From an uncultured Mycoplasmatota bacterium (lineage in GTDB: Bacteria > Bacillota_I > Bacilli_A > RF39 > UBA660), in contig CANRVY010000001.1 of assembly GCA_947643405.1 (NCBI GenBank), positions 31,852-95,851 on the forward strand: DNA of 64,000 bases, read 5' to 3'. The stretch's first letter is position 1. Every line of letters begins with the position of its first letter. Position numbers: made by a program. Below, piece by piece: positions 30,001 to 33,000 of this stretch.

Positions 30001-33000
30001 ACCATTTTCCATTATATAATTGAAGTTCTATTCTACCTTCATCATTAATTTCTACATATCCACTTTTTGGTCTTGTTCCTGTAAAAGACAATACTTTGTC
30101 ATTTGGAAAAGTAAATAATTGCTTCGGTGTTTCTTCAAAAATTAAAGCCGTTGCATAATAAGTTTGAGCTGTTTCCATAATACTGTAAGCACTATTTAAA
30201 AAAGCTTGCTTTCTAGATTTTTCAATGATATTTAGCACAATTGGAACAGTGATAAGCGCTATAACTGCTAGTATTATAATGACAGCCAATAACTCAATTA
30301 ATGTAAACCCCTTTTTCTTCATAATACCAACACCTATTCTAAACTTATTTTACATCAAAGTTTTTACTTTATCAATGAAAAAGAACAATCTTTTAAATTG
30401 TTCTATACACTCATGAGTTCATTTTCTTTTTCTTTAAATTTTTCATCTACTATTTTATTATATTTATTAATCAATTCCTGAACGTCTTCTTGCCCAGCCT
30501 CTTTATCGTCTTCTGGAATTTCTAATTTTTTAATGTCATTATTCGCATCTTGACGAATGTTGCGAAGCGCGATTTTAGCTTCTTCTGCAATTGTTTTGGC
30601 TTGTTTTACATACTCTTTTCTTGTTTCTTCTGTAAGTGCTGGAATATTTAAAATAATCACTTCTCCATTATTATTTGGCGTTAGTCCAATGTCTGCTTCG
30701 TAAACTCCTTTTTCAATTGCACCCAAACAAGAACGGTCGAATGGCTTAATCATAAGTTGTCTAGCTTCTGGAATAGAAATTGTCGCTAGTTGTTTTAATG
30801 GGGTATCACTTCCATAATAAGATACCATTACTTTATCTAGGATTGCCGGATTAGCTCTGCCTGCACGAATATTTAAAAATCTTTTTTCCATATTTTCAAT
30901 TGATGATGTCATTCTCATTTCTGCTTCCATTAATATGTCATTCATATATAACCCTCACATTTCTAGTATTATTATATTATAAATAAGTAGAAATATCAAC
31001 TATGCAAAAGTTAAATAAATCATATTTTTTAAATTAAATTTCTACTCTGTATTATAACCTATAACTAATCAAGCTTATCTTTAAAATATACTAAATATTT
31101 GGATCTAACAAACTATATATATTAATCAATTTTTTATTTCTCTGACAAAATAAATGGATTTTCTTTCGTTCCTTCCCCAGATTTTATTTGGATTTCTCTT
31201 TTCAAATATAATGCTGGTTTAATAACAGGAAACATTCGATATACATAACAAGAATCAATTGTACCTGCTGCACTATAAACCCGATATGCGCCATCTCTTT
31301 CATCACTAGTTCCCATCAAAGTCCATTGATATTGTAAAGCATCATATAACCAGTCTTTATTTCTACAATCTGTTTTATCACTGTTTGTCCAATTATACAT
31401 ACTTTCTTCACAATATGTTTCTGTACTGCTTGTTGCATACCCAAAATCACTTGGATACATTAATCCAATTGCTCCTGTCCACTCTGTTGGTCTTCCTTTA
31501 TATACATCTGTTCCTCTTTCTTTTTCATACATATTACTTCTTGTCCATTTCGTAACATCAGCATAGGCAATTCCACCTAATTTCCATATATGATTGGTGT
31601 CTATATAAGATTTACTTTTTTCTTCTATACTATCTAAAAACGTAGTATTCAACTCGACTTGTAATGTAGCACTACTCCAATCATTAACGCCATTCGAATT
31701 CCAAGCAATCCCAGCATTATAATATCTATTTTGAATAATTTTTGCTTGTCCATCAAACACACCTATAATTCTCCATAATTCATTATTAAAGATTACATAA
31801 TTGGTAGGGTCTACTCCTACATATCTTAAGTTTTTATCTGGATCATTGGTCCTAATATCGGAAGAATTTTTAATCACTGCTTCTATTGTTCGAGAAACTT
31901 TTACATTAACTATTCTAATAACCATAGCTTTCTTTCCATTGCTTTCTACTTGGTAAATAATTTGATAAATTCCAGCAATATTGGTATTAACACTTTCTAC
32001 TTTATTTCCATCTAATGTTATCTCCATTTGATATTCTAAAGTTTCTCCATCTACTGTTTTTGATGAGGCTCCTAATTCATTATATGTTTCTCCCTGTTCT
32101 AAAGTAATTTCTTTTTCTCCATTTAATAAAATCACCGGATCTTTCGCACTATCTTTGATAATACACGTTCCTTCTTCATATTTGATCAAAGTTACTTTAG
32201 AATCACCTTTATTTTTTATAGCACACCATCGATTATTATGAATCGCTATTTCAACATTTCCTAATTCATCAGTACGAATCATTCCACCATCTGGTTTACT
32301 TCCACTAAACTTTAATTCTTCAAAAGGATATTCATATATTTTGGTTACTAATTTATCATTTGCAAATTCTTCAACATATGCTAATTTAGCAGTTTCTATA
32401 AGTCCATATGCTGTATCTATAAATGCACTTTTTCTTGCAGCCTCTATGATATTCAATACAATTGGCATAGATATCAGAGCAATTATAGAAAGTATTACAA
32501 TAACTGCTAATAATTCTATTAAAGTAAAGGCTTTATTTTTATGACACTTTATTAACATATCTATTACCTCTTTCTATATACTTAAAAACACACTTCTACT
32601 TTAAATACATTTTATCAAATAAAAAGAATTATGCATCATTCTGTAACTAAATGATTTCAGATTCTTGGCTTAATAAAATTGTTTTTCTACCAACGTAATA
32701 AAAAAGATCAAGTAAAAATCTTGATCAAGGCCCAAAAATATATGATTTAAATTTTTTCAGACCTTTTCAAATATATTCACGAATCTTTTTAAATTCACTG
32801 CCATCATCTAAGTCTGTTTTCTGTAATTGTTCAAATAGTTTTTTTTGTTCTTTTGTAAGTTTTTTAGGAGTAATTACTTTAATGATAACATACATATCCC
32901 CTTTTCTACTACTGTGAATATGTTCTACTCCTTTTCCTTTTAATCGATATTTATCACCTGTCATACATCCAGCATCGATTGTAAGTTTTACTGTTCCATA

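What the first reader, a model, noticed from the sequence alone, without database searches (positions are those of the whole stretch)
31134..32558. Second large pilin-like protein with the same head domain but a different C-terminal passenger
The prepilin signal (KAFTLIELLAVIVILSIIAL) and the head-domain pattern (F.GS.P..G......G.....L.N..WCA.K.......EG.C) are paralogous to the 875-aa protein. The C-terminus instead has an Ig-like segment and a Trp/Tyr-rich roughly 150-aa domain ending GTKENPFILSEK.

This suggests a modular family: a common pilin head fused to interchangeable passenger domains. The housekeeping gene frr is sandwiched between the two members.
Basis: partly seen in the sequence, partly recalled or inferred. 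Interest (0 to 1): 0.6.

Follow-up and report, generated by a model that had tools for sequence, protein, structure and literature searches.

The report
Modular pilin carrying a lectin-like domain
This gene encodes a pilus subunit with an Ig-like spacer and a lectin-like binding domain grafted onto it; it is one of many such "modular pilins" in uncultured gut bacteria, so it is a new example of a design principle published in 2021, not a new kind of thing.

Summary
ORF 31134-32558 (-) encodes a 474-aa protein with a prepilin signal (leader MLIKCHKNKA, then FTLIE). A pilin head follows (aa 11-135; model shows a 54-residue helix plus a beta-sheet and two conserved Cys).

It is paralogous to the 875-aa protein: 34% identity over 223 aa, E 2e-23, and still E 6e-19 without the hydrophobic helix. 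Two details need correcting:
- The shared part includes the Ig-like domain (PF16403 in both).
- The unique C-terminal domain is about 250 aa, not 150.

That domain models at pLDDT 96. It matches the N-terminal DUF6273 domain of the Thomasclavelia ramosa IgA protease, an enlarged C-type-lectin-like fold, and DUF6273 receptor-binding proteins of gut phages.

The same head occurs alone or fused to several passengers: DUF1566-like, leucine-rich-repeat, DUF6273-like, Fibrobacter-type and glycine-rich modules. Three small pilins of this head family also lie in the window, so the "modular family" reading is supported.

The concept is already published (Raynaud et al. 2021). Most likely function: a low-abundance pilin that displays a ligand-binding module on a type IV filament. 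The weak point is that no pilus assembly genes lie in about 78 kb of this genome examined (the window plus two flanks), or beside the six relatives' loci inspected.

The parts
31134..32558 (-). Whole gene: 474-aa trimodular prepilin (pilin head, Ig-like spacer, DUF6273-like lectin-fold module).
   Evidence: ORF list. The identical protein is found on 15 metagenome contigs.
32567..32573 (-). Ribosome-binding site AAAGAGG, 8 nt before the ATG.
   Evidence: Read directly from the sequence.
32529..32558 (-). Predicted leader peptide MLIKCHKNKA (aa 1-10). Cleavage is expected before Phe11. The residue at -1 is Ala rather than the usual Gly.
   Evidence: N_methyl and TIGR02532 hits. In the family, position -1 is Gly in 120 and Ala in 8 of 128 members.
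32154..32528 (-). Pilin module (aa 11-135): FTLIE motif, long alpha-1 helix (aa 13-66), a 5-stranded sheet, and conserved Cys112/Cys132.
   Evidence: AF2 model with pLDDT above 90 over aa 11-135. Conservation data. The family profile matches alpha-1 of the solved pilins MshA and PilE1.
31902..32129 (-). Ig-like spacer domain (aa 144-219), shared with the 875-aa paralogue.
   Evidence: PF16403, E 7e-12, 45.6 bits against a cut-off of 27. Relatives have one or two copies.
31137..31892 (-). C-terminal DUF6273-like enlarged C-type-lectin-fold module (aa 223-474), ending GEGTKENPFILSEK.
   Evidence: AF2 pLDDT 96.1. Foldseek matches IgAse 9qa6 at E 2e-9 and phage DUF6273 proteins at E 1e-9. 27 of 70 homologues hit PF19789.
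31218..31322 (-). Most variable stretch of the module among homologues (aa 413-447). It is the candidate ligand-contact surface.
   Evidence: Column entropy peaks here, at 2.9 bits for aa 433-442. In phage DUF6273 proteins the variable regions of diversity-generating retroelements map to the C-terminus of the domain.
32706..32726 (-). Terminator-like hairpin plus T-run after dnaJ. It suggests the pilin gene is its own transcription unit.
   Evidence: Consensus scan only.
27695..30322 (-). Paralogue: 875-aa prepilin with the same head and Ig-like domain, followed by two ALK/LTK glycine-rich domains.
30403..30945 (-). frr (ribosome recycling factor) between the two modular pilin genes. It has its own promoter-like site at 30999-30971.
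2439..4085 (-). Three tandem small pilins (148, 142 and 151 aa) of the same head family. They are candidate major subunits of the filament.

Best explanation
The gene encodes a trimodular type IV pilin.

Shown:
- A class III (prepilin) signal.
- A pilin-type head: long alpha-1 helix, small beta-sheet and a conserved Cys pair.
- An Ig-like spacer.
- A 250-aa DUF6273-type, C-type-lectin-like module.
- Membership of a large family in which the same head carries many different passengers.

Inferred:
- A prepilin peptidase removes the 10-residue leader.
- The pilin module is incorporated, at low abundance and probably at or near the tip, into a type IV filament. That filament would be built mainly from small pilins such as the three at 2439-4085.
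- The Ig-like domain holds the lectin-like module away from the filament.
- The module binds a glycan or protein ligand in the gut (host mucus, food particles or other microbes). Specificity would be set by the hypervariable stretch at aa 413-447.

The 875-aa paralogue would present a different module on the same filament.
For: Signal motif above the curated cut-offs.

Head model: helix 13-66 plus five strands, pLDDT above 90. The family profile matches alpha-1 of the solved pilins MshA (4e-8) and S. sanguinis PilE1 (2e-6).

Head paralogy: E 2e-23, and E 6e-19 without the hydrophobic helix. There are 1001 head relatives with at least 7 passenger classes, plus stand-alone pilins of about 140 aa.

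C-terminal module:
- Model pLDDT 96.
- The best solved match is the IgAse N-terminal domain. It is annotated DUF6273 and described as an enlarged C-type-lectin-like domain.
- The best viral matches are DUF6273 proteins, a 'Receptor Binding Protein' and a tail-fibre protein.
- Phage DUF6273 domains are diversified ligand-binding domains.
- The family's variability peaks in the equivalent region.

Full-length relatives with the same pilin, Ig-like and lectin-fold order exist (39% identity over 465 aa), some with two Ig spacers.

Precedent: S. sanguinis PilB is a modular pilin shown to act as an adhesin, and its second modular pilin PilC carries a concanavalin A-like lectin module.
Against: No pilus assembly genes were found. 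Extension ATPase, platform protein and prepilin peptidase are absent from the 64-kb window. They are absent from about 10 kb further on one side and about 4 kb on the other. They are also absent beside family pilin genes in six other loci.

The -1 residue is Ala, not Gly (8 of 128 family members). From my own knowledge, this slows but does not abolish cleavage in Pseudomonas.

Foldseek with the head model retrieved no pilin.

No ligand is known for any DUF6273 domain, and the IgAse N-terminal domain is dispensable for IgA cleavage.

Only 5-12% of proteins carrying this module are prepilins. Most have a plain N-terminal hydrophobic anchor.
Confidence: 0.65

Rival explanations
1. Surface anchor without a pilus. 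The class III signal is used only to insert and process the protein. It then stays in the membrane or in a short pseudopilus or 'bindosome'-like assembly, as with archaeal sugar-binding proteins that carry class III signals. The lectin-like module is displayed at the cell surface rather than on a long filament.
For: No assembly genes lie near any family member examined. Most proteins with this module use a simple N-terminal hydrophobic anchor instead of a pilin head. This suggests that surface display of any kind is what matters. None of the representatives that were checked has an LPXTG sorting signal.
Against: The head is a complete, conserved pilin globular domain shared with about 140-aa stand-alone pilins. 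That would be unnecessary for a mere anchor. Scattered minor pilin genes are common in bacteria whose machinery is encoded elsewhere (own knowledge).
Confidence: 0.2
2. A minor pseudopilin of a competence (ComG) pilus or a type II secretion-like system, acting in DNA uptake or secretion rather than adhesion.
For: The N-terminus gives weak hits to the ComGC, ComGD, ComGE and GspG models.
Against: All those hits cover only the first 30-40 residues. They score far below the curated cut-offs (for example ComGC 23.9 against 75). The passengers are lectin-like and leucine-rich-repeat modules, typical of adhesion. No comG operon lies nearby.
Confidence: 0.07
3. A pilus-displayed enzyme. The DUF6273-like module would be catalytic, for example glycan-modifying, rather than a binding domain.
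For: 20 invariant residues are found among 70 homologues of 40-63% identity. Many are polar: R245, N253, N258, E260, R263, K273, E347, S370 and D371 in protein numbering. The MYPSDYGYATS segment is the most conserved block.
Against: No match to any enzyme family or fold. Every characterised context of the fold is binding or accessory.
Confidence: 0.05
4. A target of a diversity-generating retroelement, like the phage DUF6273 proteins.
For: Same fold, and the variable stretch is in the corresponding place.
Against: The window holds no template-repeat copy of the gene's 3' part and no reverse-transcriptase motif. The only DNA paralogy is between the 5' pilin-coding ends. The identical protein occurs on 15 contigs from different samples.
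Confidence: 0.02

Closest known systems
Streptococcus sanguinis modular minor pilins PilB (pilin + vWA) and PilC (pilin + concanavalin-A-like lectin); Raynaud et al. 2021, Shahin et al. 2023
   Same: A class III signal and a small pilin module, with a bulky module unrelated to pilus biology grafted on the C-terminus. PilB is shown to be an adhesin, and PilC's extra module belongs to a lectin superfamily.
   Different: The module here is a DUF6273-type lectin fold, preceded by an Ig-like spacer. The genes stand alone among housekeeping genes rather than in a pil operon. Assembly and binding are untested.
N-terminal domain of Thomasclavelia ramosa IgA protease (PDB 9qa6), annotated DUF6273
   Same: Best solved structural match: Foldseek E 2e-9, probability 1.0, TM-score normalised to query length 0.57. 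It is an enlarged C-type-lectin-like core about twice the usual size.
   Different: Only 14% identity, with no sequence-level hit. There it is the N-terminal accessory domain of a cell-wall-anchored metallopeptidase and is dispensable for cleavage. Its zinc ligands (D78, H90, C126) could not be mapped here.
Phage DUF6273 proteins (tentaclins, targets of Faecalibacterium prophage diversity-generating retroelements)
   Same: Same fold (E 1e-9 to 1e-4). They are C-type-lectin-like ligand-binding domains whose variable surface lies at the C-terminal end. That is where this family varies most.
   Different: No retroelement here. The carrier is a pilin, not a tail or capsid protein.
Pilin fusions with PF12810 (ALK_LTK_GRD), IPR011871 and IPR026906, already catalogued in Dataset S1 of Raynaud et al. 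2021 (from memory, not checked here, the last two are Fib_succ_major and LRR_5)
   Same: The same head family carries these passengers. The catalogue lists 40, 18 and 3 such proteins.
   Different: Neither DUF6273 (PF19789) nor the Ig-like PF16403 appears in that catalogue.
Legionella Lcl C-terminal domain / DUF1566
   Same: Same fold class. There is a weak direct match to 8q4e (E 0.36). Profile-profile probability is 91% over 54 C-terminal columns against the 50-member pilin passenger cluster, some of whose members NCBI names DUF1566.
   Different: DUF1566 is about half the size, and the similarity is partial.

Membership tests
Type IV pilin (class III signal peptide proteins; PF07963 / TIGR02532) | A short charged leader, then about 20 hydrophobic residues with Phe1 and Glu5. 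| tested here: met
   KNKA|FTLIELLAVIVILSIIALI. N_methyl scores 30.8 bits against 21.2, and TIGR02532 scores 26.7 against 16.3.
Type IV pilin (class III signal peptide proteins; PF07963 / TIGR02532) | Gly at position -1 of the cleavage site. | tested here: inconclusive
   The residue is Ala. 8 of 128 family members share this and 120 have Gly. From my own knowledge, Ala is tolerated by some prepilin peptidases. Cleavage was not tested.
Type IV pilin (class III signal peptide proteins; PF07963 / TIGR02532) | A long N-terminal alpha-1 helix packed on a small antiparallel beta-sheet, usually with a C-terminal disulfide. | tested here: met
   The AF2 model shows helix 13-66 plus strands at 73-126, with pLDDT above 90. 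Cys112 and Cys132 are conserved in 127 and 122 of 128 members. However, Foldseek with this model retrieved no solved pilin.
Type IV pilin (class III signal peptide proteins; PF07963 / TIGR02532) | Processed by a prepilin peptidase and polymerised by PilB/PilC-type machinery encoded in the same genome. | not testable with these tools
   None was found in about 78 kb of this genome (the window plus two flanks) or beside six related loci. The rest of the genome cannot be reached.
Modular pilin (as defined by Raynaud et al. 2021) | An N-terminal pilin module plus at least one further domain that is not specific to pilus biology. | tested here: met
   PF07963 + PF16403 + a DUF6273-like module. The definition is quoted.
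DUF6273 (PF19789) | A match to the Pfam model. | tested here: not met
   The query gives no hit even at E <= 1. 27 of 70 close homologues do hit, with best E 2.7e-7. The query is therefore a divergent relative rather than a scored member.
DUF6273 (PF19789) | The same three-dimensional fold as proteins annotated DUF6273. | tested here: met
   IgAse N-terminal domain at E 2e-9 (annotation). Phage DUF6273 proteins at E 2e-9 to 7e-6, probability 1.0.
C-type lectin-like domain fold | Structural similarity to canonical C-type-lectin-like domains. | tested here: inconclusive
C-type lectin-like domain fold | A calcium- or carbohydrate-binding long loop. | not tested
   Model coordinates could not be inspected. 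The IgAse N-terminal domain lacks this loop.
Target of a diversity-generating retroelement | A template repeat matching the variable region, and a nearby reverse transcriptase. | tested here: not met
   No repeat of the 3' part of the gene and no reverse-transcriptase motif in the window.
ComG competence pseudopilins | A score above the NCBIfam equivalog cut-off. | tested here: not met
   ComGC 23.9 against 75, ComGD 21 against 70, ComGE 20.4 against 49. All hits cover the N-terminal 30-40 residues only.

The most novel reading that the evidence does not exclude
In a group of uncultured, probably spore-forming gut Bacilli, one pilin head may have become a general display scaffold for a whole repertoire of binding modules. 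These include three lectin-fold types, leucine-rich repeats and glycine-rich domains, and they are shared with phage receptor-binding proteins and an IgA protease. The genes are dropped singly into housekeeping gene clusters with no assembly genes nearby. This could be a swappable pilus-tip adhesin repertoire. More radically, it could be a bacterial counterpart of the archaeal 'bindosome', in which class III signal proteins are displayed without a conventional pilus.
Probability: 0.15. Interest if true: 0.6.

Novelty: new member of a known kind. Interest (0 to 1): 0.35.

Why it matters
If confirmed, it adds the DUF6273 lectin-like fold to the modules that bacteria graft onto pilins. So far that fold is known only from phage receptor-binding proteins and an IgA protease accessory domain.

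It also shows that poorly known gut Bacilli carry several differently armed pilins per genome. This gives a concrete handle on how uncultured gut bacteria attach to mucus, food particles or other cells: recombinant aa 223-474 could be tested on glycan or protein arrays. It may also point to a function for DUF6273.

The general principle of modular pilins is already established, so the gain is incremental.

Tried and rejected
1. Foldseek of the head + Ig model against the PDB gave no meaningful hit (best E 0.4). The long helix and the low-confidence Ig part probably spoil the search, so I relied on model topology and a profile match to solved pilins.

3. Diversity-generating retroelement hypothesis: no template repeat or reverse transcriptase. 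Rejected.

4. Riboswitch control, as with the c-di-GMP riboswitch before C. difficile pilA1 (own knowledge): no Rfam match at E <= 1 in 27400-33000.

5. Pilus assembly genes: motif scans, Pfam on 20 window ORFs, two flank walks and six related loci all found none.

6. Identifying the organism:
- The GTDB representative scan gave only 25-34% identical module hits (one 44% segment on the pilin end), in 'uncultured Bacilli' MAGs and in two MAGs titled Muribaculaceae.
- Cluster look-ups carried no names.
- A literature search on RF39 and pili gave nothing relevant.

7. Idea that the non-pilin carriers of the module have TasA/camelysin-type (SipW) N-termini: only one weak Peptidase_M73 hit (0.0038) and four DUF4179 hits, with no NCBIfam support. 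Not supported.

8. Sequence search of the module family against PDB sequences gave no hit to the module.

Full report
**Observation**

The ORF at 31134..32558 (minus strand) is real and encodes 474 aa. AAAGAGG sits 8 nt upstream of the ATG, and a terminator-like hairpin follows the preceding dnaJ gene. The identical protein is encoded on 15 metagenome contigs with the same neighbours: dnaJ, this gene, frr, the 875-aa gene, then an AI-2E transporter.

Its N-terminus is a class III (prepilin) signal. Pfam N_methyl scores 30.8 bits (cut-off 21.2) and TIGR02532 scores 26.7 (cut-off 16.3). The predicted leader is MLIKCHKNKA, followed by FTLIE.

**Paralogy with the 875-aa protein**

BLASTP gives 34% identity over 223 aa, E 2e-23. 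After deleting the hydrophobic helix from both proteins, the match is still 27% over 181 aa, E 6e-19. The similarity is therefore not just the generic pilin helix.

G86, P89, G92, G100, C112, K115 and C132 are invariant or at least 90% conserved in 128 aligned heads.

Two corrections are needed:
- Both proteins carry the Ig-like domain PF16403 directly after the head (E 7e-12 and 4e-7). The shared part is aa 1-222.
- The unique C-terminal domain is about 252 aa, with 9 Trp and 19 Tyr, not about 150 aa.

**The head**

An AlphaFold2 model built on the 128-sequence alignment shows a helix at aa 13-66 followed by five strands. pLDDT is above 90 for aa 11-135, and this is the pilin 'lollipop' topology. 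The Ig part is poorly modelled because few homologues have it.

The family profile matches the alpha-1 helices of solved pilins: MshA at 4e-8 and S. sanguinis PilE1 at 2e-6. A Foldseek search with the model retrieved no pilin. I treat that search as uninformative.

The -1 residue is Ala. It is Gly in 120 of 128 family members and Ala in 8.

**The C-terminal module**

Pfam finds nothing in aa 223-474. A homologue search, however, finds 1817 relatives. An exhaustive search finds 4076 representative clusters, 2083 of them at E <= 1e-10. 27 of 70 close homologues reach the DUF6273 model.

The AlphaFold2 model is very confident, with pLDDT 96.1 and pTM 0.93. Its only strong solved match is the Thomasclavelia ramosa IgA protease, at E 2e-9. 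The N-terminal domain of that protease is annotated DUF6273. It is described as a novel, double-sized C-type-lectin-like domain that is dispensable for IgA cleavage.

Canonical lectin-fold proteins appear only weakly (Lcl 8q4e, CD23, PvdO). Against viral models, the best matches are DUF6273 proteins, a 'Receptor Binding Protein' and a tail-fibre protein of gut phages, with E from 1e-9 to 2e-3. DUF1566 proteins follow.

Published work shows that phage DUF6273 domains are lectin-fold targets of diversity-generating retroelements. Their variable region lies at the C-terminal end of the domain. In this family, sequence entropy peaks at aa 413-447, while the MYPSDYGYATS block is nearly invariant.

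This locus has no retroelement: there is no template repeat and no reverse-transcriptase motif.

**The family**

The head search returned 1001 proteins. Among the 128 aligned heads:

| Passenger | Members |
|---|---|
| None (pilins of about 140-170 aa) | 31 |
| One cluster, some members named DUF1566 by NCBI | 50 |
| Leucine-rich-repeat cluster (12 reach Pfam LRR_5) | 13 |
| DUF6273-like | 9 |
| Fib_succ_major | 7 |
| FNIP or unclassified tails | remainder |
| ALK_LTK_GRD (the window's 875-aa protein) | 1 |

Profile-profile comparison links the DUF6273-like and DUF1566-like passengers over their C-terminal 54 columns (probability 91%). The leucine-rich repeats are unrelated.

Full-length relatives with the same pilin, Ig-like and lectin-fold order exist: P0269 at 39.5% identity over 465 aa, plus P0330 and P0328. 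Some have two Ig spacers.

Conversely, only 6 of the 120 nearest module homologues and 16 of 139 representatives are prepilins. Most have a plain N-terminal hydrophobic anchor, and some are giant proteins with up to nine copies of the module. The module is therefore a widely shuffled surface-display unit, and the pilin is one of several carriers.

Three small pilins of the same head family lie at 2439-4085 in this window.

**Context**

Every gene around the two modular pilins is housekeeping: hrcA-grpE-dnaK-pepF-dnaJ, frr, alaS, polA, polC, serS and clpB.

No extension ATPase, platform protein or prepilin peptidase was found:
- none in the window;
- none in about 10 kb further on one side and about 4 kb on the other;
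- none next to family pilins in six other loci.

The flank in L022 holds CotE, rpsP, khpA, uppS, cdsA and rseP. A syntenic relative, L020, has a modular pilin inserted between khpA and uppS. These genes therefore sit at different places in otherwise conserved housekeeping arrays.

No riboswitch precedes the pilin genes.

The organism is not among the GTDB representatives. The nearest module-bearing loci mostly come from 'uncultured Bacilli' gut MAGs.

**Mechanism**

Most likely (0.65), this is a low-abundance modular pilin. The leader is cut, and the pilin module enters a type IV filament built mainly of small pilins. The Ig spacer then projects the lectin-like module, which binds a gut ligand through the variable aa 413-447 surface. 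The steps up to the domain architecture are shown. Cleavage, polymerisation and binding are inferred by analogy with S. sanguinis PilB and PilC and with phage DUF6273 proteins.

Rivals:
- anchor-only or bindosome-like display (0.2);
- a competence or secretion pseudopilin (0.07);
- a displayed enzyme (0.05);
- a retroelement target (0.02).

**Comparison and novelty**

[quoted passage not shown] Dataset S1 of that paper already lists pilin fusions with IPR011871 (40 proteins), IPR026906 (18) and PF12810 (3), but none with DUF6273 or PF16403.

This finding is therefore a new member of a known kind. Its passenger type is apparently not yet catalogued on pilins, and it comes from an uncharacterised gut lineage. 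Interest is moderate to low (0.35).

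Noticed in passing
window 27695-30322 (-): The 875-aa paralogue carries two ALK/LTK glycine-rich domains (PF12810, E 4.7e-92) behind the same head and Ig-like domain. Pilin-PF12810 fusions are rare: only 3 proteins in the 2021 catalogue.
   Followed up: partly
window 2439-4085 (-) and 1431-2366 (-): Three tandem small pilins (148, 142 and 151 aa) of the same head family lie directly upstream of a membrane-bound family-2 glycosyltransferase. This could relate to pilin glycosylation or be coincidence.
   Followed up: partly
window 30403-30945 (-); L022 9278-11867; L020 10001-11068: frr is separated from its usual partners uppS-cdsA-rseP, which lie about 8-10 kb beyond the window's low-coordinate end. 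In a syntenic relative, a modular pilin sits between khpA and uppS. Modular pilin genes therefore occupy different slots in conserved housekeeping arrays.
   Followed up: partly
window 26289-26468 (-) and 47766-47948 (-): Two T-box leaders reach the Rfam gathering score. One lies before the dNMP-kinase/alaS pair and one before serS.
   Followed up: no
P0248 (2446 aa), P0253 (2274 aa), P0252 (1812 aa): The DUF6273-like module also occurs in giant proteins with up to nine tandem copies. Most carriers have a plain N-terminal hydrophobic anchor, and none of the representatives checked has an LPXTG signal.
   Followed up: partly
window 37558-37974 (-): A 138-aa ORF with no Pfam match is wedged between grpE and dnaK in the otherwise canonical hrcA-grpE-dnaK operon. 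It overlaps the listed dnaK ORF start; the true dnaK start is probably [10 protein letters not shown].
   Followed up: no
window 52037-52903 (-) and 44403-45242 (-): A HipA_C-like kinase and a Fic-domain protein are scattered among replication and translation genes. A HipA_C gene also sits near a family pilin in L021.
   Followed up: no
L022 8066-8599: A CotE (spore-coat) gene lies about 4-5 kb beyond the low-coordinate end of the window. This suggests that this low-GC (about 29%) uncultured Bacilli lineage forms endospores.
   Followed up: no
L021 2743-7154: In a relative, the pilin with the DUF6273-like module is followed by two large leucine-rich-repeat (LRR_5) proteins of 715 and 755 aa. 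This may be a local cluster of surface adhesins.
   Followed up: no
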